A DNA stretch of 43,157 bases, taken from assembly GCA_964448065.1 (NCBI GenBank), contig CAYUUU010000001.1, positions 1 through 43,157 on the forward strand, written 5' to 3'. The stretch is from an uncultured Gammaproteobacteria bacterium. Its GTDB lineage: Bacteria > Patescibacteriota > Microgenomatia > UBA12405. The translations under genes and the position numbers were made by a program. Under the pieces are notes generated by a model. The model did no database searches and was not told the origin of the DNA. It saw nothing but the letters and a program-made list of their open reading frames with translations. This document shows positions 2,823 to 43,157 of this stretch, one piece after another; position 1 is the first letter of the stretch, and each line of letters opens with the position of its first letter.

Positions 2823-2844
2823 ACCTGCCTGCCGGCAGGCAGGT
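2823..2844. repeat. 22-nt perfect palindrome ACCTGCCTGCCGGCAGGCAGGT, intergenic copy
   Basis: Read directly. GC-rich island between the convergent HAD and gatB stops. Identical to the copy at 3772-3793. Confidence 0.9.
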
Positions 2845-2858
2845 TGGCAGAAAAGAAA

Positions 2859-4403
2859 CTATTTTAAAAGTTTTTCTAATATATTTTTAGCAATTACTGG
2901 ATTTGCCGATCCTTTTGAAGCTTTCATTAATTGACCAATAAGAAATCCAATAGACATCGGATTTTTAAGATAGTCTGAAACTGCTTTTGGATTAGCCTCA
3001 ATTACCTCTTTAGCGATTTTTTCAATTTCACCAGAATCAGAAACTTGAATTAAACCCTTAGACTTGGCAATTTCAACAGGATTAACACCAGTTTGATAAC
3101 TTTCGACAATTACCTGTTTAGCAACGGTGGCAGAAATTTCTGAATTGGAAACGGCCCTAAACAAATCAAAGAAAAATTGAGAATTAATTTTTGATTGATC
3201 TAAGTCTTGACCACTTTCATTAAGATAAGTTTTAATGGCCCCTAAGAAAAGATTGGCTGTAAATTTGGCAAAATCTTTAGTTTTAGCCGAATCAGTAAAT
3301 CCAACTAAATCTTTTAAAGATTTACCGACAATTTTAGTCAAATCATTAGTTTTATTTTTATAAATATAATCAACAATAATAGATTCATAAATATTGGCAA
3401 AAGCAAAATCAGCAGTAATGGTTTGAGCATCATAATCACTTAAACCATAAACTGTTTTATATTTTTCTATTTTTTGATCTGGAAGTTCAGGAACTGAGGC
3501 TTTAATGGCATCAATTTCGGCTTGAGTAAAATTGACATAAGGGATATCTGGTTCTGGAAAATAACGATAATCAGAAGAACCTTCTTTTTCCCGTTGCAAA
3601 AAGGTATGATTTTTATTGGCATCCCAACCACGAGTAGTTTTGTTAGTTTTAGATTTGGTTTCACCGGTTTGTTTAAATTCTTCAAGTTGACGATTGATCT
3701 CAAAATCTATTGCCATTTGAACTCCAGTTAAAGAAGCAACGTTTTTAATTTCGGCGAGAGGAGTATAAACCACCTGCCTGCCGGCAGGCAGGTCATCGGT
3801 TTCGATTTTTAAATTGACAGTTGGTTCACAACGCATACTACCCTTTTCAATATCTGCATCGGAAATACCTAAATATCGGATAATTTGTTGCATTTTAAGA
3901 AGATAATTTTTGGCCATTTGAGCAGAAGTTATGTCTGGTTCGGAAACTATTTCCACAAGCGGAACACCAGAGCGGTTGTAATCGATTAGGGTTAAATCTT
4001 GACCATTATTGGTTAAATGAACAGATTTGCCAGTGTCTTCTTCCATGTGGGCTCGATTAATTCTAATTTCTTGACCATCAACAACTAATTTACCGTTGAT
4101 AACAAAAGGTTTTTCAAATTGAGTTAATTGATAGCCTTTAGCTAAATCTGGATAAAAATAATTTTTTCGCTCAAAAAATGAAGTTAAATTTGGAGTACAA
4201 CCTAGAGCTAAACCCAATTTGATGCACCATTCACAGGCAGTGCGATTGGGAATTGGAAGAGCACCTGGAAGACCTAGACATACAGGACAGGTGTGAGTGT
4301 TAGCTTCAACATGAAAATGAGTTGCCGAACAACTACAAAACATTTTTGATTGAGTGCGAAGCTCGACATGAACTTCAAGACCGATTATTGGTGTGACTTT
4401 CAT
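2859..4403 (-). CDS. gatB: Asp-tRNA(Asn)/Glu-tRNA(Gln) amidotransferase subunit B
   Basis: N-terminus IIGLEVHVEL..SKMFCSC, central EIKN motif, C-terminal YqeY-like tail. Downstream of gatC-gatA on the same strand. Confidence 0.9.
   Translation of the reverse strand: MKVTPIIGLEVHVELRTQSKMFCSCSATHFHVEANTHTCPVCLGLPGALPIPNRTACEWCIKLGLALGCTPNLTSFFERKNYFYPDLAKGYQLTQFEKPFVINGKLVVDGQEIRINRAHMEEDTGKSVHLTNNGQDLTLIDYNRSGVPLVEIVSEPDITSAQMAKNYLLKMQQIIRYLGISDADIEKGSMRCEPTVNLKIETDDLPAGRQVVYTPLAEIKNVASLTGVQMAIDFEINRQLEEFKQTGETKSKTNKTTRGWDANKNHTFLQREKEGSSDYRYFPEPDIPYVNFTQAEIDAIKASVPELPDQKIEKYKTVYGLSDYDAQTITADFAFANIYESIIVDYIYKNKTNDLTKIVGKSLKDLVGFTDSAKTKDFAKFTANLFLGAIKTYLNESGQDLDQSKINSQFFFDLFRAVSNSEISATVAKQVIVESYQTGVNPVEIAKSKGLIQVSDSGEIEKIAKEVIEANPKAVSDYLKNPMSIGFLIGQLMKASKGSANPVIAKNILEKLLK
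3772..3793. repeat. 22-nt perfect palindrome ACCTGCCTGCCGGCAGGCAGGT, copy inside gatB
   Basis: Read directly. Translated in frame as LPAGRQV in ...IETDDLPAGRQVVYTPLAEIKN... Confidence 0.9.
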
Positions 4404-4405
4404 TT

Positions 4406-4446
4406 AAACCCCTCCGCCCTGCGGGCACCTCCCTTTGACAGGGGAG
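4406..4446. repeat. GC-rich two-hairpin element (AAACCC head, GCCC-tgc-GGGC, CTCCC-tttgaca-GGGGAG)
   Basis: Read directly in the gatA-gatB spacer. Same architecture as 4487-4534 and 24859-24915. Confidence 0.75.
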
Positions 4447-4486
4447 CTTTTTTATTTTGTTTTTGATTAATTTTCATTTTTATATT

Positions 4487-4534
4487 AAACCCTCTCCCGA
4501 CGTTCGTCGGGGTCTCCCTTAAAGAAGGGCGATT
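4487..4534. repeat. GC-rich two-hairpin element (AAACCC head, CCCGACG-ttc-GTCGGGG, CTCCC-ttaaagaa-GGGCG)
   Basis: Read directly in the gatA-gatB spacer. Confidence 0.75.
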
Positions 4535-4549
4535 AAAATAATTTTTATT

Positions 4550-6013: not shown

Positions 6014-6014
6014 A

Positions 6015-6317: not shown

Positions 6318-6404
6318 AGTGTATTTTACCCCATTTTCTTATTTTTTTGGCTATATATCATGATATACTTCCAGCTACAAAAAGTTCTTTGAAAAATAAA
6401 AAAG

Positions 6405-6410: not shown

Positions 6411-6418
6411 ATTAAAAA

Positions 6419-7944: not shown

Positions 7945-9849
7945 TTAATAAATATCAGGATCGTAAATAATGTCATCATCATTGGAAGATTTTGGTTTAT
8001 GACGATAATCTCTGACATCACTTTCTTCAAATTCAAGTAAATCTTTGGGGATATCGATTAAAAAGCGACTTGGTTCATTTAAGCTACTTTTGCCAAAAAA
8101 TAAACGACGGCTGGCATAAGAAATGTATAAAAACTCTTTGGCTCGAGTAATACCAACATAACAAAGACGGCGCTCTTCTTCAATTTCAGTTTCATCGATT
8201 AAACAACGAGAGTGAGGCAAAATTCCCTCTTCAAAACCAGCTAAAAAAACAACTTCAAATTCCAAACCTTTGGCTCCGTGAAGAGTCATTAGTCTGACAC
8301 CATCATGATTTTCTTTTTTCTTATTTTTTTCCTGTAGGGAATATTCTTGTTGAACTAAAGTAATATTTTCTAAAAATCCATTTAGACTTGGATAAGAAGC
8401 GGCAACAGATTTTAATTCCTTGATATTCTCAATTCGTTTTTGATCTTCCTCGTCTTTTGGATCGAATTTGTCTAAATAACCAGAGTTAATAGTTAATGAT
8501 TCTAATAGTTCTAAGGAAGTTATGGAATCTAAATTTAAACCATCTAGATAGAATAAAAAACTAGTTTTTTTTCTTTTCCCTATAATTTTATCGACTCGGT
8601 CTTCAGAAATTCGATCGGAACGATCGTGAGCAAATCGGAACAAAGACAAAAGGTCTTTGATTTCGGCACGTTCGTAAAAACGAATACCACCAAGTAAAAC
8701 ATAAGGAATACTAAGACGTAAAAGAGCTTCTTCAAGAGCACGAGATTGAGCATTCATACGATATAAAACAGCCATATCTCTTAATTCTATATGATAGTTT
8801 TCGTTTAAAAATTTGATTTTTTGAGCAATAAAATCTGACTCGGAAACTTCATTTTCGGCTTCAAAAACTTTTATTTTTTGAGTAGAAATTTTTTTGGTAA
8901 AAAGTTTTAAAACTGGATGAGAATTATTTTTGGAAATAACTGAATTAGCCGCTTCCAAAATTATCTGGGTGGAACGATAATTTTCTTCAAGATTTATAAC
9001 CTTGGCATCTTTAAAATCAGTAGTGAAATTAACCAAATTATGATAATCGGCTCCACGCCAACCATAAATAGCCTGGGAAGCGTCGCCGACAACAGTAATT
9101 TGTTTATATTTTTCGGCTAGTAATTTGGTCATAAGGTATTGAATCTGATTGGTATCTTGATATTCATCGACCATAATTACTTTATAAATATTTTGATATT
9201 TTTCTAAGACTTGGGGAAATTGATAAAACAATTCAACTGTCTTGAATAATAAATCATTAAAATCTAGGGCTTGAAAATCACCTAATTTTTCTTGATATTT
9301 TTCGTAAACTTTAGCCGCATATTCCTGCCAAAAACCATGACTTTGAGCAATCATTTCTTTTGGAGTTTGATAAGAATTTTTGGCACTTTCAATAAAATAT
9401 AAAAGACTGCTTGGTTTAAATTCTTTGGGAGTTAGACCTAAATCGTGAAGAATAAGTTTTATTAGATTTTCCTGATCGCCAGAGTCATAAATAACAAAAT
9501 TTTTAGAAACACCAATATGGTGGCCATCGGCTCGCAAAACTTTACAACAAAATGAATGAAAAGTCCCCGCCGTCAGCTGTGCAGACTTGGCGGGCAGGCC
9601 TGATTTTACCTTATATCCAGATAAAAGTTTGGCCATACGATTTTTCATTTCGTCGGCAGCTTTGTTAGTGAAAGTTAAAAGAAGAATTTCACTAGGTTTG
9701 GCAATTTTTTTATTAATAAAATAGGCGGCACGATGGGTTAAAACTCGAGTTTTACCAGATCCGGCTCCAGCTAAAAGTAAAAGTGGACTACCCAAATGAG
9801 TAACCGCTTCTTTTTGTTGAGGATTTAGTGATTTTAAAATATCGTCCAT
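7945..9849 (-). CDS. uvrD: ATP-dependent DNA helicase, UvrD/PcrA family
   Basis: LNPQQKEAV, AGAGSGKTRVLTHR, TFTNKAA, VDEYQDTN, YRS, LMTLHGAKGLEF, YVGITRAK. Confidence 0.9.
   Translation of the reverse strand: MDDILKSLNPQQKEAVTHLGSPLLLLAGAGSGKTRVLTHRAAYFINKKIAKPSEILLLTFTNKAADEMKNRMAKLLSGYKVKSGLPAKSAQLTAGTFHSFCCKVLRADGHHIGVSKNFVIYDSGDQENLIKLILHDLGLTPKEFKPSSLLYFIESAKNSYQTPKEMIAQSHGFWQEYAAKVYEKYQEKLGDFQALDFNDLLFKTVELFYQFPQVLEKYQNIYKVIMVDEYQDTNQIQYLMTKLLAEKYKQITVVGDASQAIYGWRGADYHNLVNFTTDFKDAKVINLEENYRSTQIILEAANSVISKNNSHPVLKLFTKKISTQKIKVFEAENEVSESDFIAQKIKFLNENYHIELRDMAVLYRMNAQSRALEEALLRLSIPYVLLGGIRFYERAEIKDLLSLFRFAHDRSDRISEDRVDKIIGKRKKTSFLFYLDGLNLDSITSLELLESLTINSGYLDKFDPKDEEDQKRIENIKELKSVAASYPSLNGFLENITLVQQEYSLQEKNKKKENHDGVRLMTLHGAKGLEFEVVFLAGFEEGILPHSRCLIDETEIEEERRLCYVGITRAKEFLYISYASRRLFFGKSSLNEPSRFLIDIPKDLLEFEESDVRDYRHKPKSSNDDDIIYDPDIY
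9565..9602. repeat. GC-rich hairpin element inside uvrD (CCGCC...GGCGG plus GCAGGCC)
   Basis: GC island in an AT-rich gene. Translated in frame as SGLPAKSAQLTAG, between helicase motif Ia (TFTNKAADEM) and GTFHSF. Confidence 0.7.
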
Positions 9850-9858: not shown

Positions 9859-11979
9859 CTATAGTTGGTAAATCTTGGTTTTACCAGACTGAAATACAAC
9901 TTGCCCACCAATCTTTATAAAAATGTCTTCGTTGAGATTTGGATATTTTTCGCGTTCTTTATTGCCAACAAAAATATATTTAACATTATATTTTTGTAAC
10001 AAAGTTTTAGTTTCATTAGTATCTTGGGACTCATAAATTTTTTGAACATCATCTTGACGTTCTTTTGGTTTATCATAACCACCACGCCAAAGCCATTCAT
10101 GAACAATCCACCCCTGGACAGTAGGTAAACCAGTAGATACAGAAACTTGACCAAAAGTGGTGTAGCTGTCCCCAACTGCTTCTAAAATTACTGGCTGACC
10201 AGAAACATTTTTGTTTAACCAGTTGATGGCAATAAAATTATCTGGATATAAATCTTTTAAATAATTTAAACCATATAAACCTTGATAATTTTCAATTCCA
10301 TAAAATGATTTAATGGCAAAATAAGGATACGACAGATGAATAATAAAAATTATAACAGCTAATAGATAGTAAAAAATACGAATAATTTTTTGAGAAATTA
10401 AGGTTTTGGCCCGAAAAATAAAATATCCAGAGGAAAGAGAATACAAAATGAAGGCTTGGTAAACTAATTTGAACATCGTATTGGCTCGACGATGTTCGTA
10501 AATATAAATGTCTTTGATATAAACAAACTCAGGAATAATAATTAAAATGGTAGCGGTAACAAAAAGTGAAAAAGCAAAAATATCGGATTTGGTTAATTTT
10601 AAATAGCGACGGAAAAATCTATAAATTAAAACTAAAATAATTGGAATATTGATTAACCAAAAACCACCATACAAAATAAATAATTGATAAAAAGGAGTAT
10701 GAGAATCGGCTAGTTTTATACCTTGAGTCATTGGACTAAAATTTAGGGAGAAAGGCAGAGAAAATAAATACCAAAAAACAATCGTTAAAAAACCATTTGA
10801 TAAAGTTTTGTTAAAAGAGATTAATAATTTATTTGATTTAAGATTATTTAAAAAAGTAAAAATAGCAAAGAAAATTCCATAAATAGCAAAATCCCAAGCG
10901 TTGGTCATATAGGCAATAGCTAAAATTAAGGCCGAAGGAATAATAAGTTTAAAATTTAAAATTTTTTCTGATGATTTGATTAAAGAAATTGATAATAAAA
11001 AAGCCAAGAAAAAAATAACAATTGGCAAATCATTTAGATGACCATGAAGATCGGAAACAACAAAACTGTAAATTGGAAATTCATGAATGGTTTTATCGCT
11101 AGTAACTGGATCGTAACCAATAAAACGAGTAGCATCTGGATACCAATATTTTGAAGCAGATTTAATAAAAGCATCTTTGGTTAAAACTAATTTATTGTTA
11201 TCAGTAATATTGATTTTAATAATTTTATATAAAGGATGAAGGTTGCCGCCGAAAGTTAATAAAAAAGCCGAGATTAAACCAAAAAAAACAACTTGATAAC
11301 TAAACCCTTCCCTAACCCTTCCCTTGACAGGGCAGGATAAGAAAAGATAAACCAAATTGGAGACCAAAGAAAAAGAAAAAGTAAAAGCCATGGCACAAAT
11401 AGTTGCTATTGATAAGTTATAAGTAATGGTTGAACTAATGGTGCTAAATTTGGTTAAAAAAGCAAAAATGTAATGACCAAAATAATAATAATTAATGGGG
11501 CTACCAGCAAACCACATATCTTGAGGAGGGGAAAAACGGCTACGTAGGATAGTGTTTATAAATCCCCAATCCATATATTTCTCTAGACCTTCAAGATCTG
11601 GAGCAAAACCACGAACAAAAGACCAGCTGATTAAAATTATTAAAAATAGAATTTCTTCAAAAACAAAAAACTTATATTTTTCTTTTAAAACTTGAATAAA
11701 TTTTTTAAAACAATTTTTGTTAAAAAAGAAAAAAATAAAATTAGTAAGAATAATTAGGCTAAAAATAATTAAGAAAGAGGTATTAGTAAAAGGTAAAATT
11801 TTTAAAACTCCTAGAGTAAAAGTAAGATAAGAAAATATTAAAACACCAATTATTTTGGAAAAAATATAACCTTTATCCCAAAATTTTTTGAATAAAGAAA
11901 AAGTTAAAGGCAAAAAAATAAGAGCAATAGAATTTATGGAAAGGTACCAAAAAATGATGAAATTAAGATCGGACAACAT
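9859..11979 (-). CDS. DUF2298 (YYY-motif) polytopic membrane protein
   Basis: 706 aa, many TM segments, signature SPINYYYFGHY, C-terminal soluble domain. Confidence 0.7.
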   Translation of the reverse strand: MLSDLNFIIFWYLSINSIALIFLPLTFSLFKKFWDKGYIFSKIIGVLIFSYLTFTLGVLKILPFTNTSFLIIFSLIILTNFIFFFFNKNCFKKFIQVLKEKYKFFVFEEILFLIILISWSFVRGFAPDLEGLEKYMDWGFINTILRSRFSPPQDMWFAGSPINYYYFGHYIFAFLTKFSTISSTITYNLSIATICAMAFTFSFSLVSNLVYLFLSCPVKGRVREGFSYQVVFFGLISAFLLTFGGNLHPLYKIIKINITDNNKLVLTKDAFIKSASKYWYPDATRFIGYDPVTSDKTIHEFPIYSFVVSDLHGHLNDLPIVIFFLAFLLSISLIKSSEKILNFKLIIPSALILAIAYMTNAWDFAIYGIFFAIFTFLNNLKSNKLLISFNKTLSNGFLTIVFWYLFSLPFSLNFSPMTQGIKLADSHTPFYQLFILYGGFWLINIPIILVLIYRFFRRYLKLTKSDIFAFSLFVTATILIIIPEFVYIKDIYIYEHRRANTMFKLVYQAFILYSLSSGYFIFRAKTLISQKIIRIFYYLLAVIIFIIHLSYPYFAIKSFYGIENYQGLYGLNYLKDLYPDNFIAINWLNKNVSGQPVILEAVGDSYTTFGQVSVSTGLPTVQGWIVHEWLWRGGYDKPKERQDDVQKIYESQDTNETKTLLQKYNVKYIFVGNKEREKYPNLNEDIFIKIGGQVVFQSGKTKIYQL
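11302..11335. repeat. GC-rich element (AAACCCTTCCCTAACCCTTCCCTTGACAGGGCAGG) inside the DUF2298 gene
   Basis: Read directly. Translated in frame as CPVKGRVREGF. Related to the CCCCTC-TTTGACAA-GAGGGG family. Confidence 0.7.
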
Positions 11980-14917: not shown

Positions 14918-16484
14918 TTTTTTTATAAATTCTAATGGTTGGATTATCAAAAACACTCCAGGTTTCCTCAGCATTTTCATCATTTAAAAACAAAGATAAA
15001 TTATAATTAAATTGTTTAATTTGATTAAAACCAAGCTGACCAGAAAAAAGAGATTGATAATATTTTTGACTGACAGGAAAATTGGAATTATTTTGATTTT
15101 TAAAGACTCGACGAGAAGGTAGGATAATATATTCCGATTTTGATAGTTGAGTAGTTAATTGTGAGTCTAGATTAGAATCAAAATCTAAATTATAAAAATC
15201 AAAATTATTTACTTGAAGATTAGAATTGTAGACTGGTAAATTAACAACATTACCAGATTCGGATAAAATTAAAGAGGTTGAAGGAATTTGATTAATTAAC
15301 CAAATAGAAGCAATGGATCGATTATCGACCAAAAAATAACGACGACAAAAATAAATTCCTGGAAGGATGCTTAATAAGCATAAAATTAAATAAATTATTT
15401 TTGATTTAATTTTTGATAAAAAGAAAACTGTAAACAAAGGACCAATAAAAAATATTGGTGACATAAATCGAGTCCATTTTGTAAAAAGTTGTCCATTGTA
15501 TAAAAAATAAATTAGACAAGGGAAAAGAATTATTAATAATTTTTTTTTAGTAGTTAACGATATTTTTTTGAAATTGAATATAAAAAAAATAAAACCAATA
15601 ATTGAAAAAATGAAGATAAAAATACCAGAAGTATAAGGAAAAATATGAGTAAATTGAAAAATATAAGGAATAGTATTTATAAATTGACGAGTATAAAAAA
15701 CAAGAATATTACCGGTAGCAACTCCGGTTTCGTAAATCATTGAACTTTTAAAATCAGAAATTTTTAGAAAAGAAAAAGGAGTAAAAATAAAAGTAAAAAC
15801 TAAAGTTAAAAGAGATAAGGATAAAATTGAAAATAAAAATTTTTTAAACCTATGTAGAGACGCATCATGATGCGTCTCTACTAATAATGAAAAAATAAGA
15901 GAAAATAAAATTGGCAAAACAAAAAAGATGCCAGTAATTTTAGAAGCAATAGCAATGGCACTGACAAGTGCTGTTAGAAATAAATATTTTGTTTTTTGAT
16001 GATTAAAATAATTTAAGGCTAGTAAAATATTGGCTGAAAAAGCAAAAAATAAAATTGATTCGGTGGTGCCAAAATGAGCTAACTGTATTAGACCTGGAGT
16101 AAAAATTAATAAAAAAACAAAAGCTAAAAGTTCTCTCTTTTGGGGAAAAATTTTTTTAGCAATTAAATAAAAAAATAAAATTGAAAAGGAAGAAAAAATA
16201 GCTGACCAAAAACGAAGAGTTAGAGTAACATGATAAAAATCATGTTTTGGGGTAGTAAAAAAAGTTAAAAATAAAGGAAATTGATTGTAAGCAAAAAAAT
16301 TAGGATTAAGATTTTTAAAAGACATTGACAAAACAGAATTAACCATATTGTTTTCATCTGGATGGAAGAAAAAAGAATTACCCCAATTTAAACCACAAAA
16401 ACGAGTTAACAAAATACAGATTAAAACTATGTTAAAAATTAGAAAAGATTTATTTTTTTCAAAAAAATTTTTTTTAGAGGACAT
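14910..16484 (-). CDS. GT-C fold (GT39/ArnT/PMT-like) glycosyltransferase, second paralog
   Basis: Polytopic. First-loop FFHPDENNM. C-terminal AEETWSVFDNPTIRIYKK matches the paralog. The ATG at 16484 overlaps the UbiA stop. Confidence 0.6.
   Translation of the reverse strand: MSSKKNFFEKNKSFLIFNIVLICILLTRFCGLNWGNSFFFHPDENNMVNSVLSMSFKNLNPNFFAYNQFPLFLTFFTTPKHDFYHVTLTLRFWSAIFSSFSILFFYLIAKKIFPQKRELLAFVFLLIFTPGLIQLAHFGTTESILFFAFSANILLALNYFNHQKTKYLFLTALVSAIAIASKITGIFFVLPILFSLIFSLLVETHHDASLHRFKKFLFSILSLSLLTLVFTFIFTPFSFLKISDFKSSMIYETGVATGNILVFYTRQFINTIPYIFQFTHIFPYTSGIFIFIFSIIGFIFFIFNFKKISLTTKKKLLIILFPCLIYFLYNGQLFTKWTRFMSPIFFIGPLFTVFFLSKIKSKIIYLILCLLSILPGIYFCRRYFLVDNRSIASIWLINQIPSTSLILSESGNVVNLPVYNSNLQVNNFDFYNLDFDSNLDSQLTTQLSKSEYIILPSRRVFKNQNNSNFPVSQKYYQSLFSGQLGFNQIKQFNYNLSLFLNDENAEETWSVFDNPTIRIYKKND
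15854..15881. repeat. 28-nt perfect palindrome GTAGAGACGCATCATGATGCGTCTCTAC (REP-like, GTAG-headed) inside the GT-C gene
   Basis: Read directly. Translated in frame as VETHHDASL. The arms are identical to the copies at 41382 and 41926. Confidence 0.85.
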
Positions 16485-22373: not shown

Positions 22374-23792
22374 ATGAAAAAATTTTTTATTACTACCCCA
22401 ATTTATTACATTAACGATATTCCTCATATTGGACATACCTGTACAACTGTGGCCGCTGATGTAATTGCCAGATTACATAGACTTAAACAAGAAGAAGTTT
22501 TCTTTTTAACAGGAACTGATGAACATGGCCAAAAAGTAGCTGAAACTGCTGAAAAAGAAGGCTTGGATGTAAAAGAATATTGTGACAAAATATCTCCAAG
22601 ATTTCAGGAAGCTTGGAAAGCTTTAAATATTAGTTTTGATTTTTTTATTAGGACTACTGATCCAAGACACGAAAAAATAGTTAGTGATATTTTACAAAAG
22701 ATTTATGATAACGGAGATGTTTATAAAGCTAAATATGAAGGTTTATATTGTATTGGTTGCGAAAAATTTTTGACCGAAACAGATTTGGTTGATGGTCACT
22801 GTGGACTTCATCCACCAGAAAAAACAGTTCAAAAAAGTGAAGATAATTGGTTTTTTAGATTGAGTAAATATGTACCCCAAATTATTGAATTAATTGAGAA
22901 TGAAAAAACTAATTATATTTTTCCAGAAGGTAAACGCTCGGAAATATTGGCAAAACTAAAAGCTGGAATAAGAGATGTGTCTATTTCTAGGGAAAATGTG
23001 GCCTGGGGAATTCCGACTCCTTGGGATAAAAAACAAACTGTCTATGTGTGGTTTGATGCTTTGATAAATTATTACAGCGCCACTCAATTCTTGGAAGGCA
23101 AAAAAGATTTTTGGCCAGCTAATTTGCATTTGTTGGGAAAAGAAATTTTATGGTTTCACACTGTAATTTGGCAAGCAATGTTACTATCAGCAAAGATTGA
23201 ACTTCCTATAAAAACTTATACTCATAGTTTTTATATGATTGATGGCCAAAAAATGTCTAAATCTTTGGGAAATGTAATTTCACCACAACAATTAAGAGAA
23301 AATTTTGGAATTGATGGAGCCAGATATTTGATTGCAACTTCTTTTCCAACTGAAAATGATAGTGATGTGGGAATTGAAAGATTTAAGGAAAAATATAATG
23401 CTGATTTGGCCAATAATTTGGGAAATTTAGTTTCAAGAGTGTCGAAGTTGGCTGAAGGCCAATCTTCCCCCAACCCCTTCTTTGACAAGACGGGGAGTCT
23501 TGATATTGAGTTTGAAAAGTTGATTGATGAAGTTAAATTTGATCAAGCTATCCAATTTGTTTTTGATAAATGGATTAACAGTTCTAATTTAAAATTAAAT
23601 CAGGAAACTCCATGGAAATTAGATAAAGAAGATTCTAAAAGAAAAGCGGTTTTGAATGAATGTATTAACAATATCAAACTAGCGGCTTTCCATTTGCAAA
23701 TTGTGATGCCAGAAACTGCCGAAAATATTTTAAATTGTTTTGAAAATACAGTTAAACCACTAGAAACAGGATTATTCCCAAGAATAAAATAA
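22374..23792 (+). CDS. metG: methionyl-tRNA synthetase (short form, no C-terminal tRNA-binding domain)
   Basis: HIGH motif (PHIGHT), KMSKS motif (KMSKSLGN), connective-peptide Cys knuckle CIGCEKF...HC. Confidence 0.9.
   Translation: MKKFFITTPIYYINDIPHIGHTCTTVAADVIARLHRLKQEEVFFLTGTDEHGQKVAETAEKEGLDVKEYCDKISPRFQEAWKALNISFDFFIRTTDPRHEKIVSDILQKIYDNGDVYKAKYEGLYCIGCEKFLTETDLVDGHCGLHPPEKTVQKSEDNWFFRLSKYVPQIIELIENEKTNYIFPEGKRSEILAKLKAGIRDVSISRENVAWGIPTPWDKKQTVYVWFDALINYYSATQFLEGKKDFWPANLHLLGKEILWFHTVIWQAMLLSAKIELPIKTYTHSFYMIDGQKMSKSLGNVISPQQLRENFGIDGARYLIATSFPTENDSDVGIERFKEKYNADLANNLGNLVSRVSKLAEGQSSPNPFFDKTGSLDIEFEKLIDEVKFDQAIQFVFDKWINSSNLKLNQETPWKLDKEDSKRKAVLNECINNIKLAAFHLQIVMPETAENILNCFENTVKPLETGLFPRIK
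23460..23495. repeat. GC-rich element CAATCTTCCCCCAACCCCTTCTTTGACAAGACGGGG inside metG
   Basis: Read directly. Translated in frame as QSSPNPFFDKTG. Same family as 36978-37011 and 42923-42957. Confidence 0.85.
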
Positions 23793-24856: not shown

Positions 24857-24858
24857 TT

Positions 24859-24915
24859 AAAACCCACCCACCCCGCAATGGCGGGGCACCCTCCCTTAAG
24901 TAATGGAGGGCGATT
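24859..24915. repeat. GC-rich two-hairpin element (AAAACCC head, CCCCGC-aatg-GCGGGG, CCCTCC-cttaagtaat-GGAGGG)
   Basis: Read directly. Starts 2 nt after the tatD stop. Confidence 0.8.
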
Positions 24916-24923
24916 TTTATATT

Positions 24924-24994
24924 AAAACCACTCAGTCCCGATAAATCGGGACACTTGCCTGACGGCAGGCAGGTCTCCCCTTGATGAAAGGGAG
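24924..24994. repeat. GC-rich three-hairpin element (GTCCCG-ataaa-TCGGGAC, CTTGCCTG-acgg-CAGGCAGG, CTCCCC-ttgatgaaa-GGGAG)
   Basis: Read directly. The middle hairpin (24954-24974) is a degenerate copy of the 22-nt palindrome at 2823 and 3772. Confidence 0.8.
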
Positions 24995-24999
24995 CAGTA

Positions 25000-36977: not shown

Positions 36978-37011
36978 CAATCTTCCCCTGCCCCCTCTTT
37001 GACAAGAGGGG
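36978..37011. repeat. GC-rich element CAATCTTCCCCTGCCCCCTCTTTGACAAGAGGGG, intergenic copy
   Basis: Read directly, between the AlkD-like stop and the deaminase start. Confidence 0.85.
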
Positions 37012-37015
37012 TTAA

Positions 37016-37780: not shown

Positions 37781-40700
37781 ATATAGGAATAAGAAGAAGT
37801 AGTAACCACCACCAATTAATTAATTTTTCAGCAGTAGAAGAACCTAAAACATCACCAAGTTCTACTTCTGGAGTTGTAGTTGGATTAATTTCTTCTTCTA
37901 TATTAGCACCTAAAACTTCTGTAGAAAAACCTTCAGCTGGTTGATTAGGAGTAGTACCGGCAGCTCCAATAATAGTGCCAGTATTTACTTCATTACTGTC
38001 GCTACTTTGATTTTGAGCACCATCAACAGCTTTAACAATGAAATAATAGTTACCGATACCAAGACCTTTAACTGTGTAAGAAGTTATATTACCAACTCTA
38101 GCTCCATAAGGATGAATTCCTTGAACTGAACCATACCAAATAATGTAATCTTTAGCATCATCTATGGCATTCCAAGAAAGAGTGGCTGTACCACTGCCAA
38201 TATTATCCAAAATGAGAGTTGGAGAGATTGGAGAAGTACGATCGACATTTAAATCAATAGAAGCATCTTTAGCTCGACCACTTTGATCAAAAGCAACAAC
38301 TTTAACTGTCCAGCGACCTTCAATTAATTGATCAATTTCAACTTCAGTTGTTCCAGCACCGACAGTTTTGGAATAAGAATGTGAATTATCTAATTTCCAT
38401 TGAATTTCATATTTATCGATACCAGTATTATCTTTAGCAAATTCCCATTTAATTTTGGAAGTACTACCACTGGTTGGATTTGGATTAGCAGAAAGATTTT
38501 GTGGACTATATTCTAAATCTGTTTTATCCCATCTAATATTTCTAAAATCAATTACAGAATAATTACCGGCTTTATCGATAGCTCGATAATATAAATCATG
38601 ATTTCCTTCAGTTAAGGGTTTAATGGCAACTGAATAAGTTGTCCAAGAACCTTCAATTTGAGAATCCCATTGATATTCAATTTTATCTAAATTAGCATCA
38701 GTACTGGTCAAAGTTATTTCTGGTTGAGTCCAATACCAACCATTTTGACCATCTGGAGAGACTGGATTAACTGAAGATGAAATTGTTGGAACAGTATTAT
38801 CAATATTTAATTTTTTTAATTCACTCCAACCACTTTCATTACCAAATGAATCAACTGCTTTGACTCGCCAATAAAAACTAATAGTTTGGTTGCCACCAAC
38901 AGTTCTATAATTATTTTTTCCGGTATTTTCAGTATGAATTTTATTTTTAGCTTCACTATCTCTATAACTTTCATAAATGTAATGATCTACACCATTAACC
39001 TCAGTCCATGACTGTTTTGGATTTCCATTAACCAAGGCATCATTAAGTGGAAAAACAAGAGTTGGAGTGTTTAAACAAGAACTTGGAGTTCCAAAACATT
39101 GCCAATTATTTTCAACAGTACAAGAGCTAGAACAACCATCTCCATTTATAATATTCCCATCATCACATGTTTCATTTGAATCAAAAATACTATTTCCACA
39201 AATTGGAACATAACAAGCAGCAGTAGCATCACAGATTTTGTAACCACCAAAACCATTAGGAATAGAATTATTACTACCAAGATATCCACAAGTTGTTGGA
39301 CAAGTACCGGCTGGGGTATAAGTACAAACAGAATTATCTATAACTTCAGTATTAGTGTTAAAACTAGAATCATAATTTAAGGCTTTGGAATCAGTACAAA
39401 TTTTAGCTTTTTGGTGACAAGTATTATTTTCTAAATAAAATCCATCGGCAGCAGTTATTACATAATCTTCAGTCTGAGGTAATTTTAAAAAATTATCTAT
39501 TGCCCACCAAGGAATCTCTGAACTTATGCTTGGACGAACACAATTGTTTGAAGTTGTTGATTTTTCGTAAGCAATGGTTTTATTAAAATTTTCAGTTATA
39601 TATGTGGCAGGAATATAGGTTCTATTAATAATAGAAGTAGAAATTTTTTGTATAATTCTTGAACAAGGTTTAGTATTTTTGTCACTATAATAGTATATGT
39701 CTAGTGATGGACATTTACCAAATATGTTTTTATCTGCATATTTTGTTTCATAAACAGTAGAAATCACAGTACATGTTTTACCATCAATATTTGGAATACC
39801 ATTAGTACAATCAGCATAATGTTCTGGAACATCTATTATTATTCTGGTTGCGGTGAAATTTTTGGTTGGACAAGAATAATTACAATTTTGACTAAGAACT
39901 TCAAAATTTATGGAATCAATTTTTGAATAACTTCCAAATATTTCTTTTTCAAAAATAGCACTCCAAGTTCCAATAGTATCGTTATTTGATAATGTATAAG
40001 AACAAGAAACAAAATGACCATTAACAACAGGACAAGTTTTAATGGTATTACCATTGTTATCTTGAAAAACAATCCTTGACGAATAATAAACAGGATTTAA
40101 TATTTCCGCATAAACTGTTTCACCTTGGATATAAGAATATTTTTTAACTGTTAACGAAGGATCAGAATAAGTAACAATAAATAAAGTGAAATGGTTGAGA
40201 TTACTAGTGGTAGCAGTTAAATTATTTTCAGTGGTATTATCGGCAGTTTGAGCTGAATTAATTTGAGAAATTTCTTCGGCAAATTTAATGTCTATATCCT
40301 TTCCTTTTGAAGATTCTGGAATTGGAAGAGAAAGATTATAAGCAAAAGTACCATCGGTCATATCGGAAGTAATATCATAAGCTTTATCTGATAATGAACC
40401 AGTTTGTTGTACTTGTTCGGCGGTTAAATTAATTTCTTGAATTTTTATATTACCTGATTTTTCTGGTAATTTGGTAAAAACTATCTTTACTCCACTGTTT
40501 TGCGGAGCAACATATTCTTTATTTAATTGAACATTTTCAAAAGTCCAATTATTAGTAGTTTGCTCGACTAAAACAGGAATTTCAGTTGGAGTAAATGAGA
40601 TCGTAGGTGATAGATCGTCGATCGTAGATGGAATTGGGGTTGATGTTGGAGTTATTATTTGTTGTGGTTCTGGAGTTAGTTCTGGTGTTGGAGTAATTGT

Positions 40701-40952: not shown

Positions 40953-41029
40953 CAGTAATAATTAAATCAATTTAAAGTATATTGATTTTTAAAAAAATTA
41001 CAATTAATTGAAAATTTACTTAAAAATAT

Positions 41030-41350
41030 CTAAAAAGAATAAACTATTTTTTCAAAATTAATAATTTTATTATTTTTATCGACTTTAATTCCCTCTTGTT
41101 TATAAAGTTGATCTCGCCATTTATTATGTTCTGGATCAAACCAAATTTTGCCACTGGAATAAACAATCCGATGAAAAGGAATTTTATCGACCTGGTCTGA
41201 TTTACCTAAAATATTAGTAATCATCCGAGATAACATAGGATGACCACCAGCAGCGGCACAAAGTAAACCATAGGTGGTAACTCGACCTGCTGGAATACTT
41301 AGGGCTAACTGAACAACTTTTTTAGAAAATTCACCTGGTTTTTGGTTCAT
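41030..41350 (-). CDS. alkyltransferase-like (ATL) protein: MGMT DNA-binding domain without the acceptor cysteine
   Basis: IPAGRVTTYG...IPFHRIV, where MGMT has PCHRV and known ATLs have PWHRV. 106 aa. Confidence 0.6.
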   Translation of the reverse strand: MNQKPGEFSKKVVQLALSIPAGRVTTYGLLCAAAGGHPMLSRMITNILGKSDQVDKIPFHRIVYSSGKIWFDPEHNKWRDQLYKQEGIKVDKNNKIINFEKIVYSF

Positions 41351-41374
41351 AGATTATTTTAATATATAGATTAT

Positions 41375-41647
41375 TTAAGATTGTAGAGACGCCCCGCGGG
41401 GCGTCTCTACAGAAGTTAACTTTATTTTTTCAGTTCTAGATAATTTTTTAATTCTAGATTCTTCTTTGGAAGCAAGTGATCTGTTTTCAAATTCTTTGGA
41501 ATAAACTAATTTTACGGGACGACGAACTTTGGTGTATTTGGCACCTAATTTAGAGCTGTTATGTTCTTTGATTCTTCTTTCTAAATCGGTGGTAATTCCA
41601 GTGTAAAGAGTTTGATCATTACACTGAATAATATAAAGAAAATACAT
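41375..41647 (-). CDS. GIY-YIG nuclease family protein (UPF0213-like)
   Basis: YFLYIIQC.DQTLYTGITTDLERRIKEHN, plus the R, E and N core. The C-terminal 12 aa (SVETPRGASLQS) are encoded by the palindrome. Confidence 0.8.
   Translation of the reverse strand: MYFLYIIQCNDQTLYTGITTDLERRIKEHNSSKLGAKYTKVRRPVKLVYSKEFENRSLASKEESRIKKLSRTEKIKLTSVETPRGASLQS
41382..41411. repeat. 30-nt perfect palindrome TGTAGAGACGCCCCGCGGGGCGTCTCTACA (REP-like, GTAG-headed)
   Basis: Read directly. Identical to 41926-41955. Confidence 0.9.
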
Positions 41648-41648
41648 T

Positions 41649-42241
41649 TTATTTTTTATAAAATTTATCTTTTTGCCAATTAATAGGGTTATTTATTATA
41701 TAGTTTTTAACTATTGATAGTTCTTTTTTGTTTTGAATAATATGATCGTAAAATCTTGATTGCCAAGAAAAAAATAAATGTTGTTGATCACAAATTCGTT
41801 TGACTGATGATTTAAATTGATTAATGACTTTAGGAATTTCTTGATTTGATTTTACATTTAATCTTTTAAAAAACTCTGGATGGTTTTGATGTGATGGAAT
41901 AATAATTGGTGATATTTGATCTTTATGTAGAGACGCCCCGCGGGGCGTCTCTACAAGAATTTCCCGTATAGTAATCAATAAATGAAGATGGTTGGGGGCA
42001 TTACCACCCAAGGGTTTATGATTAAATTATTTCGAAGGGAAATTGTTTTTAATAATTCATTTTTGGTTATTTTTCCAATTTCTGATAATTCCATTTTATT
42101 ATCAATAATTTTTCCAAAGAAATTGTTTTTATTGTAAGTACAAATAGTGATGAAATAATAGCCAGGGTTTGAATAATCCCAGTTATTTAAACGAGAAGAA
42201 TTAATTTTGTATCGATCATCAAATCGATTTTCCATTTTCAT
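41649..42241 (-). pseudogene. REP-associated tyrosine transposase (RAYT; IS200/IS605-type Y1 HUH enzyme) split by a frameshift
   Basis: Track ORFs 41975-42241 and 41649-42011 join into one protein if one C is removed from the C5 run (G5 on the + strand, 41987-41991): ...NPWVVMPNHLHLLI (HUH motif) ... WQSRFYDHIIQN (catalytic Tyr) ...NNPINW. Its ATG overlaps the rarA TGA (ATGA). Confidence 0.7.
41926..41955. repeat. 30-nt perfect palindrome TGTAGAGACGCCCCGCGGGGCGTCTCTACA inside the RAYT gene
   Basis: Read directly. Translated in frame as VETPRGASL, just after the HUH motif. Confidence 0.9.
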
Positions 42242-43157
42242 TTATTTTTTGGTTTAAAATATTTTTTACCTTTTAATTTTTCAGGTAATAAATCCTCTTT
42301 TGAATACATTTGGTAACCCTGACCATAGCCAATCTCTTTCATTAGTTTAGTTTCGGCATTGCGGAGATTAAGCGGTATTGGAAGATTACCATATTGTTGA
42401 ACATCGGCCAGAGCGGATAAATAACCCTCGTAAGCAGAACGGTCTTTGGGACTCTTGGCTAAATAAACAACTCCATGGGCTAGATTTTCCCGACACTCTG
42501 GATAACCAATGGTTTCACAGGTTCTAAAGACCTCATTGGCTAACATAAGAGCTGAGGAGTTAGCAATTCCAATATCTTCACTAGCAAAGACAACCATTCG
42601 TCTGGCAATAAACTTTGGATCTTCTCCGGCTTCGATTAGACGAGCTAGATAATAAAGAGAGGCGTCGACATTTGATGCTCTCATACTCTTAATTAATGAG
42701 CTGATAGTATTGTAATGTTCCTCCCCTTTTTTATCGAAGCGAAGAAAAGTGTTTTGAAGAGCCTGTTTAAGACTTTCGAGTTTTAAATTGCCGTATAAAG
42801 TATAGGCATTATCAAGCATAGTAATGCATTGACGAGCATCACCGTTGGCCATTTGAATAAGCCATTCCTTGGCATCTTTTTTAATTAAAACCCCTTTTTT
42901 ATCTAAACCCTTCTTTGATTTCACAATCTCCCCTAACCCCTCTTTGACAAGAGGGGGACTTAAAACAGAAACAGCCCTGTCTATTATTTGACCTATTTCT
43001 TCATCAGATAATTCTTTTAAAACAAAAACTCGGCAACGAGAAAGAAGTGGAGAGATAACTTCAAAAGAAGGGTTTTCGGTGGTGGCCCCAATTAAAATTA
43101 AAGCTCCTGATTCAACTGAAGGAAGTAAAAAATCTTGTTGAGCTTTGTTGAAACGGT
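42238..43157 (-). CDS. rarA: replication-associated recombination protein A (AAA+ ATPase), partial (N-terminus off the right edge)
   Basis: My translation upstream of the track ORF stays open: RFNKAQQDFLLPSVESGALILIGATTENPSFEVISPLLSRCRVFVLKEL... then ANGDARQ and the MgsA C-terminal domain. Confidence 0.85.
   Translation of the reverse strand, partial: RFNKAQQDFLLPSVESGALILIGATTENPSFEVISPLLSRCRVFVLKELSDEEIGQIIDRAVSVLSPPLVKEGLGEIVKSKKGLDKKGVLIKKDAKEWLIQMANGDARQCITMLDNAYTLYGNLKLESLKQALQNTFLRFDKKGEEHYNTISSLIKSMRASNVDASLYYLARLIEAGEDPKFIARRMVVFASEDIGIANSSALMLANEVFRTCETIGYPECRENLAHGVVYLAKSPKDRSAYEGYLSALADVQQYGNLPIPLNLRNAETKLMKEIGYGQGYQMYSKEDLLPEKLKGKKYFKPKNK
42923..42957. repeat. GC-rich element CAATCTCCCCTAACCCCTCTTTGACAAGAGGGGG inside rarA
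   Basis: Read directly. Translated in frame, in the opposite orientation to the metG copy, as SPPLVKEGLGEI. Confidence 0.85.

What the first reader, a model, noticed from the sequence alone, without database searches (positions are those of the whole stretch)
2823..42957. GC-rich palindromic elements are translated in frame inside essential and conserved genes (an RPE-like phenomenon)
Sixteen short GC-rich islands (22-70 nt) stand out against the AT-rich background.

Eight lie inside genes whose homologs are well conserved:
- gatB 3772
- uvrD 9565
- DUF2298 11302
- GT-C 15854
- metG 23460
- GIY-YIG 41382
- RAYT 41926
- rarA 42923

A ninth lies inside the giant surface protein at 40598.

In every case the host reading frame continues through the element without a stop or shift. 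The element adds a 7-13 aa peptide (LPAGRQV, SGLPAKSAQLTAG, CPVKGRVREGF, VETHHDASL, SSPNPFFDKTG, VETPRGASL, SPPLVKEGLGE). In gatB, uvrD, metG and rarA the peptide appears to fall in regions that vary between homologs.

The same families also occur intergenically (2823, 4406, 4487, 24859, 24924, 36978). Both orientations are tolerated inside genes (metG versus rarA).

The only well-known precedent I know is the Rickettsia palindromic element (RPE). I am not aware of a description for this type of genome.
Basis: partly seen in the sequence, partly recalled or inferred. Interest (0 to 1): 0.85.

Follow-up and report, generated by a model that had tools for sequence, protein, structure and literature searches.

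The report
Tiny palindromic repeats inside essential genes
Short GC-rich hairpin repeats (REP-type miniature mobile DNA) have recently landed, in frame, inside housekeeping genes of an uncultivated Shapirobacteria (CPR) bacterium; this is real, but the same behaviour is already described for REP elements in other bacteria.

Summary
The observation largely holds. The 30% GC window, from Candidatus Shapirobacteria, carries several families of 20-36 nt GC-rich palindromes. Syntenic DNA from relatives (75-99% identical) lacks the copies in gatB, uvrD, DUF2298, GT-C, rarA and the GIY-YIG gene end. These are therefore recent, lineage-specific gains. Every net gain inside a gene is a multiple of 3 and falls in a variable loop.

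Two calls fail. Site 40598 is not an element. The GIY-YIG copy is only a C-terminal extension.

Family F2 (GTAGAGACG-N10-CGTCTCTAC) is a "double-foot" GTAG REP. The window encodes its RAYT/TnpA-REP transposase, which carries a copy in frame just after the HUH motif. Quentin et al. 2018 described exactly this for subclass 2.4. Di Nocera et al. 2013 already catalogued intragenic REPs, including in UvrD and tRNA synthetases, so RPE is not the only precedent.

What is new:
- The host is a CPR lineage.
- There are two untagged families, F1 and F3, with no identified enzyme.
- The F1 20-mer also sits in frame in PheS, PurH, LigA, SecA, UvrC and other genes, and in tRNA D-loops, across many metagenome contigs.

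Verdict: a new member of a known kind, of moderate interest.

The parts
2823..2844 (.). F1 copy, a perfect 22-nt palindrome, intergenic. It lies between the live gatB stop and a remnant of an older gatB 3' end (about 2768-2812, minus strand).
   Evidence: Sequence. It is absent from the relative L001. The live last 42 nt of gatB are identical to the L250 allele, while the old end is retained downstream of F1.
3772..3793 (-). F1 copy in frame inside gatB (ORF 2859-4403, minus strand), encoding D-LPAGRQV.
   Evidence: The frame is open. All 18 orthologues lack it. The net gain is +12 nt against L001. It sits at a beta-hairpin tip in the model, with a pLDDT dip.
4403..4447 (.). Composite intergenic hairpins directly upstream of the gatB start. 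The segment includes the GGAGG ribosome-binding site and an F3-like CTCCC...GGGAG hairpin.
   Evidence: Sequence. The core is conserved in L001.
4488..4530 (.). Intergenic hairpin unit (CCCGACGTTCGTCGGG plus a CTCCC-type hairpin).
   Evidence: Sequence. It is absent from L001.
9565..9602 (-). Singleton GC-rich imperfect palindrome in frame in uvrD (ORF 7945-9849, minus strand), encoding GLPAKSAQLTAG.
   Evidence: The frame is open. The gain is +24 nt against L001. It adds about 9 aa relative to PcrA, between motifs Ia and Ib.
11303..11338 (-). F3-related element in frame in the DUF2298 gene (9859-11979, minus strand), encoding CPVKGRVREGF.
   Evidence: The frame is open. The gain is +24 nt against L001.
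15853..15882 (-). F2 variant (GTAGAGACG CATCATGATG CGTCTCTAC) in frame in the GT-C/PMT_2 glycosyltransferase gene (14910-16496, minus strand), encoding VETHHDASL.
   Evidence: Sequence and frame. The gain is +7 aa against L002, L003 and L006.
23463..23498 (+). F3 variant in frame in metG (true start near 22374; ends 23792, plus strand), encoding SSPNPFFDKTGS. It replaces an 8-aa stretch, for a net gain of +12 nt.
   Evidence: Window, L003-5 and L006 share near-identical DNA with the same stem mismatch. The closest relatives L002 and P0122 lack it.
24860..24995 (.). Cluster of about five GC hairpins in two units, including a degenerate F1 (24954-24973) and F3-like hairpins. It occupies the place of a conserved 65-70 aa membrane-protein gene present in relatives.
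   Evidence: The gene is present in L002, L003 and L006 but missing here.
36978..37011 (.). F3 copy, intergenic.
41382..41411 (-). F2 copy (a double-foot GTAG...CTAC REP) forming the last ~10 codons of the GIY-YIG gene (41375-41647, minus strand), encoding SVETPRGASLQS*.
   Evidence: This 58-nt block is absent from L008 (80-aa protein) and present in L009.
41926..41955 (-). F2 copy in frame inside the RAYT gene, directly after the HUH motif, encoding VETPRGASL.
   Evidence: The same feature appears in RAYT homologues. The 28 nt are identical in RAYT genes that are otherwise only 67-72% identical. It falls in the unstructured loop at residues 90-120 of the model.
41649..42240 (-). RAYT / TnpA-REP (HUH-Y1 transposase) gene, broken by two extra C at 41994-41998.
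   Evidence: Pfam Y1_Tnp. NCBIfam REP_Tyr_transpos scores below its cut-off. PDB 4ER8 TnpA-REP is the best hit. Intact identical protein P0241 is encoded on L009.
42904..42969 (-). 66-nt block in rarA containing F3 (core 42929-42956), in frame, encoding SVLSPPLVKEGLGEIVKSKKGL. Its orientation relative to the host gene is opposite to the metG copy.
   Evidence: The frame is open. The block is absent from L008 and present in L009. It is a 15-aa insertion relative to E. coli RarA 3PVS.
40598..40630 (-). Not an element. This is ordinary AT-rich linker sequence of the surface protein (PSTIDDLSPTIS).
   Evidence: The L008 orthologue has three copies of the motif, each with a GC insert (QTAGGSD) that the window lacks.

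Best explanation
The GC islands are copies of several families of miniature stem-loop repeats of the REP type, and they were added recently to this Shapirobacteria genome.

F2 (GTAG-AGACG-N10-CGTCT-CTAC) is a "double-foot" GTAG REP. It is the cognate hairpin of the RAYT/TnpA-REP encoded in the window. RAYT is an HUH-tyrosine enzyme that binds the folded hairpin on single-stranded DNA and cuts and rejoins next to the GTAG foot. In this way copies are seeded at new sites (inferred from the E. coli enzyme, not shown here). The RAYT gene itself carries one copy in frame in a disordered loop after the HUH motif.

F1, F3 and the uvrD singleton are untagged hairpins with no identified enzyme. They may move by a similar single-strand route or by short-patch recombination between strains (inferred).

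Insertions land anywhere, but about 95% of this genome is coding. Genic insertions therefore survive only under three conditions: the net length change is a multiple of three, the frame used has no stop, and the site is a tolerant surface loop or a gene end. That filter explains why every genic copy seen is in frame and encodes a short Pro/Ala/Gly/Arg-rich peptide.

The inserts are most likely translated as short loop decorations with no function for the host protein.
For: SHOWN
- Presence/absence against close relatives:
  - gatB +12 nt, uvrD +24, DUF2298 +24.
  - GT-C +21.
  - rarA +66 and GIY-YIG end +58.
  - metG: 12 aa replace 8.
- Hairpins are enriched 8 against 0.2 expected.
- Loop positions.
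- Density: 6 element loci lie in about 2.2 kb of non-coding DNA, against 8 in about 41 kb of coding DNA.
- F2 has a GTAG head and a CTAC tail.
- The window encodes a RAYT with HUH and Tyr motifs.
- Most of the RAYT homologues displayed carry VETxxxASL, or in another frame CRDVxxxVST, after the HUH motif.
- The 28-nt REP is 28/28 identical in RAYT genes that are otherwise 67-72% identical.
- In public genomes, 88 of 128 GTAGAGACG-N10-CGTCTCTAC sites have a perfectly palindromic centre, with 35 different palindromic centres. This is covariation.
- F1 recurs in frame in PheS, PurH, LigA, SecA, UvrC, DinB and other genes on other contigs.

LITERATURE
- Intragenic REPs: PMC3733652.
Against: - No cleavage or mobility by this RAYT was tested.
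- The window's RAYT is frameshifted, and the L008 copy also appears to have a 1-nt deletion.
- F2 is sparse. Only the RAYT-internal copy occurs in 20 kb around two other Shapirobacteria RAYTs.
- F1 and F3 lack the GTAG foot, and no enzyme is linked to them.
- The gains are not clean. Target bases were lost or replaced and there is no target-site duplication. That does not match simple IS200-type insertion.
- The metG copy is shared by divergent lineages but absent from the closest one. This needs recombination or precise loss.
- Translation of the inserts is inferred only.
Confidence: 0.8

Rival explanations
1. The repeats spread mainly by uptake and recombination rather than by transposition. 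On this view the palindromes behave like DNA-uptake or recombination-favoured signals. They move between strains as very short conversion patches, or are captured as small DNA pieces during break repair.
For: - The metG copy has the same two derived changes in the window, L003-5 and L006. Yet the window's flanks match L002, which lacks the element, right up to its edges.
- F1 at 2823 sits exactly at a junction. There a 42-nt gatB end identical to another allele (L250) has been placed in front of the old gatB end.
- The exact F1 20-mer occurs in many unrelated contigs and in IMG/VR contigs.
- Insertions come with loss of a few target bases and no duplication.
Against: - No uptake specificity is known or tested for these bacteria.
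- Whole 20-36 nt blocks appear de novo at sites that all other orthologues lack.
- In tRNA-like sequences exactly the 20-nt core is inserted, which looks like an insertion event.
- Some hits in high-GC contigs may be chance.
Confidence: 0.12
2. The hairpins are removed or bypassed and never translated. They would be intron-like or translational-bypass elements, as in some yeast mitochondrial genes, so the host proteins would be unchanged.
For: - The elements form very stable hairpins, for example -26 kcal/mol for F2.
- Translational bypass of GC-rich inserts is known in a yeast mitochondrion (own knowledge, not tested here).
Against: - Every internal genic copy has a net length that is a multiple of 3 and uses a stop-free frame. 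That would be unnecessary if the insert were removed.
- The F2 frame containing TAG is never used in RAYT homologues.
- F1 frame use is biased to LPAGRQ.
- No Rfam family matches.
Confidence: 0.03
3. The sequences are ancestral or locally evolved loop sequence, not insertions. The GC-rich stretches would be old parts of the proteins that relatives have lost.
For: - metG shows no net length gain relative to distant PDB homologues.
- Some divergent orthologues share the metG peptide.
Against: - The same nucleotide sequences recur in unrelated genes and in intergenic DNA.
- All 18 GatB orthologues lack the insert.
- Relatives with 85-90% identical DNA lack six of the copies.
Confidence: 0.02
4. 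The hairpins are selected regulatory structures (terminators, mRNA stabilisers, ribosome-binding-site occluders), and the genic copies are by-products.
For: - Some intergenic units end in a T-run after a hairpin, for example after tatD at 24888-24915.
- One unit overlaps the gatB Shine-Dalgarno sequence and is conserved in L001.
- REPs are reported to act on mRNA in other bacteria (PMC3733652).
Against: - This does not explain the identical copies inside coding loops.
- It does not explain presence/absence between close relatives.
- The orientation of several intergenic copies does not fit termination of the neighbouring genes.
Confidence: 0.03

Closest known systems
GTAG-tagged REPs and their intragenic copies (Di Nocera, De Gregorio, Rocco 2013, BMC Genomics 14:522, PMC3733652)
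   Same: - F2 is a 28-30 nt GC-rich palindrome with a GTAG foot, and it is associated with a RAYT.
- Copies lie mostly between genes, but some lie wholly inside ORFs of known proteins and encode short peptides.
- The hosts reported there include UvrD-type helicases and tRNA synthetases, as here.
   Different: - The host is a CPR bacterium. This is not reported there, and no paper linking RAYT or REP with CPR was found.
- Copy number appears low.
- F1 and F3 lack the GTAG or CGTC tag.
TnpA-REP (RAYT) subclass 2.4 with REPs inserted in frame inside the transposase gene (Quentin, Siguier, Chandler, Fichant 2018, BMC Genomics 19:475, PMC6006769)
   Same: [quoted passage not shown]
- It is a "double-foot" REP (5' GTAG ... 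CTAC 3').
- The insertion region is variable and peripheral.
- The same REP stem is abundant in Cyanobacteria and Bacteroidota.
   Different: - Assignment of this protein to subclass 2.4 was not tested against their profiles.
- Here the internal REP is identical across RAYT genes that are 67-72% identical. I did not see that point in the passages I read.
Rickettsia palindromic elements (RPE)
   Same: Palindromic repeats inserted in frame into genes for functional proteins of a small AT-rich genome (as summarised in PMC3733652).
   Different: - RPE-1 elements are about 100-150 bp and encode 30-50 aa (own knowledge), whereas these are 20-36 nt.
- No dedicated transposase is known for RPE, whereas F2 has a RAYT.
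- Sequence similarity to RPE was not tested.
Small dispersed repeats (SDR) of Nostoc and relatives
   Same: These are 21-27 nt hairpin-forming dispersed repeats that nest inside other repeats, and no enzyme is known (own knowledge). F1 likewise nests inside other repeats and hairpins (L189 and L228).
   Different: - The sequences and hosts are different.
- In-frame occupation of essential genes is not, to my knowledge, a feature reported for SDRs.
Mobile GC clusters and palindromic elements of AT-rich fungal and algal mitochondrial genomes
   Same: GC-rich hairpins stand out in an AT-rich genome, and some sit in frame in protein genes (own knowledge, not tested).
   Different: - These are organelle genomes, unrelated to the bacterial case.
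- The sequences are different.
- No HUH enzyme is involved.

Membership tests
REP (GTAG-tagged, double-foot type) | Short (20-40 nt) GC-rich imperfect or perfect palindrome able to form a stem-loop | tested here: met
   F2 is a 30-nt perfect palindrome with a folding energy of -26 kcal/mol.
REP (GTAG-tagged, double-foot type) | Conserved GT[AG]G at the 5' foot, and its complement C[TC]AC at the 3' end for the double-foot type | tested here: met
   F2 reads GTAG AGACG...CGTCT CTAC at 41383-41410, 41927-41954 and 15854-15881. This feature is not met by F1, F3 or the uvrD singleton.
REP (GTAG-tagged, double-foot type) | Many dispersed copies in the genome | tested here: inconclusive
   There are 3 copies in 43 kb. 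Only the RAYT-internal copy occurs within 20 kb in L252 and L253. No complete genome was available.
REP (GTAG-tagged, double-foot type) | Association with a RAYT gene (flanking or overlapping it) | tested here: met
   One copy lies inside the RAYT ORF and another lies 238 nt downstream of its stop, at the end of the next gene.
REP (GTAG-tagged, double-foot type) | Stem maintained by compensatory change across copies | tested here: met
   Of 128 public sites, 88 have a perfectly palindromic centre, and there are 35 distinct palindromic centres. Chance is about 0.1% per site.
REP (GTAG-tagged, double-foot type) | Cleavage and joining by the cognate RAYT on single-stranded DNA | not testable with these tools
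   This needs biochemistry.
RAYT / TnpA-REP (subclass 2.4-like) | HUH motif and catalytic Tyr in a Y1 transposase fold | tested here: met
   The motifs MPNHLHLL and ...KNYIINNP are present. H82 and Y178 are invariant and H84 is nearly invariant in 74 homologues. Pfam Y1_Tnp scores 31.1 bits against a cut-off of 23. The best PDB hit is 4ER8, TnpA-REP.
RAYT / TnpA-REP (subclass 2.4-like) | Score above the curated cut-off of NCBIfam NF047646 REP_Tyr_transpos | tested here: not met
   The score is 57 bits against a cut-off of 80, split into two stretches by the insertion region. This is a divergent member.
RAYT / TnpA-REP (subclass 2.4-like) | Variable insertion between the HuH strand and helix alpha-C that contains in-frame REPs | tested here: met
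   The model shows residues 90-120 unstructured, with pLDDT 50-62. The description is in PMC6006769.
RAYT / TnpA-REP (subclass 2.4-like) | Single-copy, vertically inherited (domesticated) gene | tested here: inconclusive
   The rarA-RAYT-GIY-YIG-Ogt synteny is the same in the window, L007, L008 and L009. More distant genomes have different contexts. Genome-wide copy number is unknown.
Rickettsia palindromic elements (RPE) | Element length of about 100-150 bp encoding tens of residues (RPE-1) | tested here: not met
   The elements here are 20-36 nt and encode 7-13 aa.
Rickettsia palindromic elements (RPE) | In-frame insertion in ORFs that stay intact | tested here: met
Rickettsia palindromic elements (RPE) | Sequence relationship to RPE consensus sequences | not tested
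   No RPE sequences were compared.
MITE | Terminal inverted repeats with a target-site duplication; size 70-300 bp | tested here: not met
   No duplication was found at filled versus empty sites or at 125 F1 sites. The elements are too short.

The most novel reading that the evidence does not exclude
F1 (CCTGCCTGCCGGCAGGCAGG), and perhaps F3, may be an ultra-small mobile DNA of only 20 nt. It has no GTAG foot and no dedicated enzyme nearby.

On this reading it moves within and between lineages, including phage-like contigs. It inserts its exact core into tRNA D-loops and, with a compensating small deletion, in frame into essential genes such as GatB, PheS, PurH, LigA, SecA and UvrC. The mechanism would be something not yet described, for example capture of an excised hairpin oligonucleotide at a break, or uptake-biased conversion.

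That would make it among the smallest horizontally spreading genetic elements known.
Probability: 0.15. Interest if true: 0.75.

Novelty: new member of a known kind. Interest (0 to 1): 0.42.

Why it matters
The finding shows that REP-type hairpin repeats and a RAYT are active, or were recently active, in a CPR bacterium with a small and about 95% coding genome. In such a genome nearly every insertion must hit a gene. This gives a natural experiment on which protein loops tolerate 4-22 extra residues.

It also explains a class of odd GC-rich peptides that clutter CPR protein predictions and alignments (LPAGRQ, VETxxxASL, PPLVKEGLGE). Gene callers and phylogenomic pipelines could mask them.

The practical lead is F1. 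The exact 20-mer recurs in frame in many essential genes across metagenomes, has no known enzyme, and is cheap to follow up computationally.

Tried and rejected
1. Source contig: the window's GatB is not on record. I worked from relatives instead.
2. F1 inserting at the apex of existing hairpins: several examples suggested this. Over 125 sites, however, flank complementarity equals the shuffled control (1.63 against 1.59). No target duplication or flank consensus was found either. Rejected as a general rule.
3. GIY-YIG nuclease as a conserved partner of the RAYT: the two are adjacent in the window, L007, L008 and L009. They are not adjacent in two more distant Shapirobacteria. Not supported.
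4. Site 40598 as an element: rejected.
5. Known RNA families or tRNAs in the window: none found.
6. Literature searches by element sequence (GTAGAGACG, the F1 core, LPAGRQ): nothing relevant was returned.
7. Assembly artefact: rejected, because the same copies occur in independent assemblies (L009; L003, L004 and L005).
8. One Pfam call failed on a bad coordinate. The remaining ORFs were annotated by synteny instead.

Full report
WHAT THE WINDOW IS

The window is 43,157 nt and 30.0% GC. GatB, MetRS and RAYT homologues place it in Candidatus Shapirobacteria, a CPR/Patescibacteria lineage.

Neighbouring genes are ordinary housekeeping genes (and synteny). About 95% of the window is coding.

CHECKING THE OBSERVATION

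Perfect GC-rich hairpins (stem >=7 bp) number 8, against a mean of 0.2 in block shuffles. Repeat finding and direct reading define the following families:
- F1, ACCTGCCTGCCGGCAGGCAGGT: 2823-2844, 3772-3793, and a degenerate copy at 24954-24973.
- F2, TGTAGAGACGCCCCGCGGGGCGTCTCTACA: 41382-41411 and 41926-41955, with a centre variant at 15853-15882.
- F3, (CAATC)TCCCCTAACCCCTCTTTGACAAGAGGGG: 36984-37011 and 42929-42956, a variant at 23467-23494, and a relative at 11303-11338.
- A singleton in uvrD at 9565-9602.

The host frame is open through the element in gatB, uvrD, DUF2298, GT-C, metG, rarA and the RAYT segment, and the quoted peptides are right.

Three corrections are needed:
- Site 40598 is not GC-rich, not palindromic, and not a family member.
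- The GIY-YIG copy forms only the last ~10 codons, just before a new stop.
- The RAYT ORF is interrupted about 40 nt upstream of its element by two extra C in a C-run. An almost identical public contig (L009) has the gene intact.

Other GC islands, in gatA and POR, are conserved native coding sequence.

ARE THEY INSERTIONS?

Syntenic DNA from relatives was obtained through exact-protein look-ups:

| Locus | DNA identity to window | Window region covered |
|---|---|---|
| L001 | ~90% | 1-14.4 kb |
| L002 | ~85% | 12.4-25.2 kb |
| L003-L006 | 75-80% | 12.4-25.2 kb and beyond |
| L007, L008 | not measured | 30-43 kb |
| L009 | near-identical | 41.3-43.1 kb |

Results by gene:
- gatB: all 18 aligned orthologues read DD-GQT-VY where the window reads DD-LPAGRQV-VY. 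Against L001 the net gain is +12 nt.
- uvrD: +24 nt against L001.
- DUF2298: +24 nt against L001.
- GT-C: +7 aa against L002, L003 and L006.
- rarA: +66 nt against L008; L009 shares the block.
- GIY-YIG 3' end: +58 nt against L008; L009 shares the block.
- Intergenic copies at 2823 and 4488-4530 are also absent from L001.

Every gain inside a gene is a multiple of three. None is a clean indel. A few ancestral bases are replaced in each case and there is no target duplication.

metG is different. A 36-nt element replaces 24 nt. The same copy, with the same two derived stem changes, is present in the window, L003-5, L006 and P0126. It is absent from the two closest orthologues, and the window's flanks match those element-free relatives right up to the element. 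That copy is older, and its distribution needs short-patch recombination or precise loss.

WHERE IN THE PROTEINS?

| Protein | Position of the insert |
|---|---|
| GatB | length-variable turn; beta-hairpin tip between strands 190-202 and 210-213, with a confidence dip |
| UvrD | about 9 aa added relative to PcrA, between motifs Ia and Ib |
| MetRS | in a region where homologues have gaps |
| RarA | 15 aa added relative to E. coli RarA |

WHAT F2 IS

F2 starts with GTAG and ends with CTAC. The gene at 41649-42240 is a RAYT/TnpA-REP:
- It has the HUH motif MPNHLHLL and a conserved Tyr.
- Pfam Y1_Tnp scores above its cut-off.
- NCBIfam REP_Tyr_transpos scores 57 bits, below the 80-bit cut-off.
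- The best PDB match is E. coli TnpA-REP, 4ER8.

Among 120 homologues, most of those displayed carry VETxxxASL right after the HUH motif. Others carry CRDVxxxVST, the second open frame of the same palindrome, and some carry two copies. The third frame, which contains TAG, is not used.

In two Shapirobacteria RAYT genes that are otherwise only 67% and 72% identical in DNA, the 28-nt REP is 28/28 identical. The structure model places it in an unstructured loop, residues 90-120.

The hosts were Bacteroidota, Cyanobacteria, Chloroflexota, Acidobacteriota and others. Of 128 sites, 88 have a perfectly palindromic centre, with 35 different palindromic centres. This is clear covariation for a hairpin.

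All of this matches published descriptions. Quentin et al. [quoted passage not shown] Di Nocera et al. 2013 catalogue GTAG and CGTC REPs lying entirely inside ORFs of known proteins in many species. They note DNA-repair genes, UvrD/Rep helicases and tRNA synthetases among the hosts, and they treat the short Rickettsia RPEs as members of the same world (PMC3733652).

No paper linking RAYT or REP with CPR bacteria was found.

F1 AND F3

These families have no GTAG foot and no linked enzyme.

F3 also occurs in relatives at other places:
- L006, intergenic.
- L001, where two inverted copies flank a DUF559 endonuclease gene. The last 7 codons and the stop of that gene come from the element.

Hits in high-GC contigs may partly be chance. 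Hits in AT-rich contigs are not.

Ten long F1-containing ORFs were tested, and all were conserved proteins: GH115, PurH, LigA, SecA, a P-type ATPase, a class II tRNA synthetase, UvrC, PheS, DinB and ATP synthase. PDB alignments show F1 is an insertion in PheS (+6 aa) and PurH (about +4 aa).

Frame use is biased to LPAGRQ.

In several tRNA-like sequences exactly the 20-nt core sits between the D-loop and the 3' D-stem. F1 also occurs in 35 IMG/VR stretches, mostly in high-GC contigs.

No flank consensus, hairpin-apex preference or target duplication was found.

MECHANISM

The best-supported account is that these are REP-type miniature repeats.

For F2, the resident RAYT is the likely agent. Its action would be hairpin recognition and cleavage or joining at the GTAG foot on single-stranded DNA. 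This is inferred from the E. coli enzyme and was not tested here.

For F1 and F3 the agent is unknown.

The in-frame, stop-free, loop-located pattern is what selection leaves behind in a genome that is about 95% coding. Element loci are roughly 14 times denser per kb in non-coding DNA.

Some features hint that recombination between strains also spreads or removes copies:
- target bases are replaced at the insertion sites;
- the metG copy has a patchy distribution;
- F1 at 2823 sits at a mosaic junction, where a foreign gatB 3' end identical to the L250 allele lies in front of the retained old end.

Removal of the inserts from the mRNA is unlikely, given the strict multiple-of-three rule and the avoidance of the stop-containing frame.

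VERDICT

It is not a new kind of phenomenon. It is a new lineage (CPR) for intragenic REPs and for a RAYT with an internal REP, plus two orphan palindrome families.

The F1 family is the part most worth following up, because of its breadth, its exact conservation, its preference for essential genes and tRNA D-loops, and the absence of any known enzyme.

Noticed in passing
window 2768-2900 (minus strand): The gatB 3' end is duplicated and mosaic. The live last 42 nt (PVIAKNILEKLLK*) are 100% identical to the allele on L250. They are followed by a 14-nt spacer, then F1, then the remnant of an older gatB end (PKLAKEILEKLLNS*) that resembles P0002 and L001.
   Followed up: partly
window 24848-25006: A conserved 65-70 aa membrane-protein gene (weak PF15993 hit) lies between tatD and a thioredoxin-like gene in L002, L003 and L006. 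It is missing here, and a cluster of GC hairpins occupies its place.
   Followed up: partly
window 25344-27362 (+): A 672-aa ORF is built almost entirely of 15-nt (5-aa) periodic repeats of the G-[YF]-[DN]-K-[DN] type, with strong GC skew. It has no Pfam hit, and the whole gene is absent from the syntenic position in L003 and L006.
   Followed up: no
window 41994-41998; L008 about 5800-5860: The RAYT is frameshifted in the window (CCCCC where L009 has CCC). In L008 it appears to carry a 1-nt deletion near the N-terminus, and the called gene starts late (181 aa). Either the transposase is decaying in these lineages or these are homopolymer assembly errors.
   Followed up: partly
L008 5999-6128 (same in L007): The RAYT gene of the ~90%-identical relative carries two F2 copies separated by about 75 nt of AT-rich DNA, all in frame. 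The first has the GTAG foot only and the second has the CTAC foot only, as if a spacer had been inserted into, or a doublet formed from, the single copy.
   Followed up: no
L001 15779-16236: Two F3 cores in inverted orientation flank a 135-aa DUF559 (Vsr-like endonuclease) gene. Its last 7 codons and TAG stop come from the element. This endonuclease is a possible partner for F3.
   Followed up: no
L202 664 and 839; L208 23; L285 515; L179 4708; L228 572: The exact F1 20-mer is inserted between the D-loop and the 3' D-stem of tRNA-like sequences. These are often truncated copies lying next to an intact tRNA gene of the same kind. L228 has two copies in one D-loop region, and L285 is an IMG/VR contig.
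   Followed up: partly
L008 7221-7513 versus window 40590-40630: The relative's surface protein has three copies of the motif PTPTEIQDLTPTQTAGGSDIS. Each contains a GC-rich 21-nt core (CAGACGGCAGGCGGGTCTGAC) that resembles half of F1. The window has one copy of the motif without that core.
   Followed up: partly
window 3290-3360 (gatB residues about 349-371): gatB also carries an AT-rich insertion of about 23 aa (IYKNKTNDLTKIVGKSLKDLVGF), shared only with P0001 and P0004 among 18 orthologues. It is unrelated to the GC elements, and the model is low-confidence there.
   Followed up: no
F1 and F2 sequences: Both palindromes consist of two inverted Type IIS restriction sites: ACCTGC/GCAGGT (BspMI type) in F1 and GAGACG/CGTCTC (BsmBI type) in F2. 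This rests on my own knowledge of the recognition sites and may be coincidence.
   Followed up: no
L189 1140-1260: F1 is nested inside another widespread palindromic repeat (…CTCTGCGGAG[F1]CTCGCAGAGACG…) on an AT-rich contig. The contig also carries repeat-derived ORFs of the 'LDCHALRSSQRR' type.
   Followed up: no
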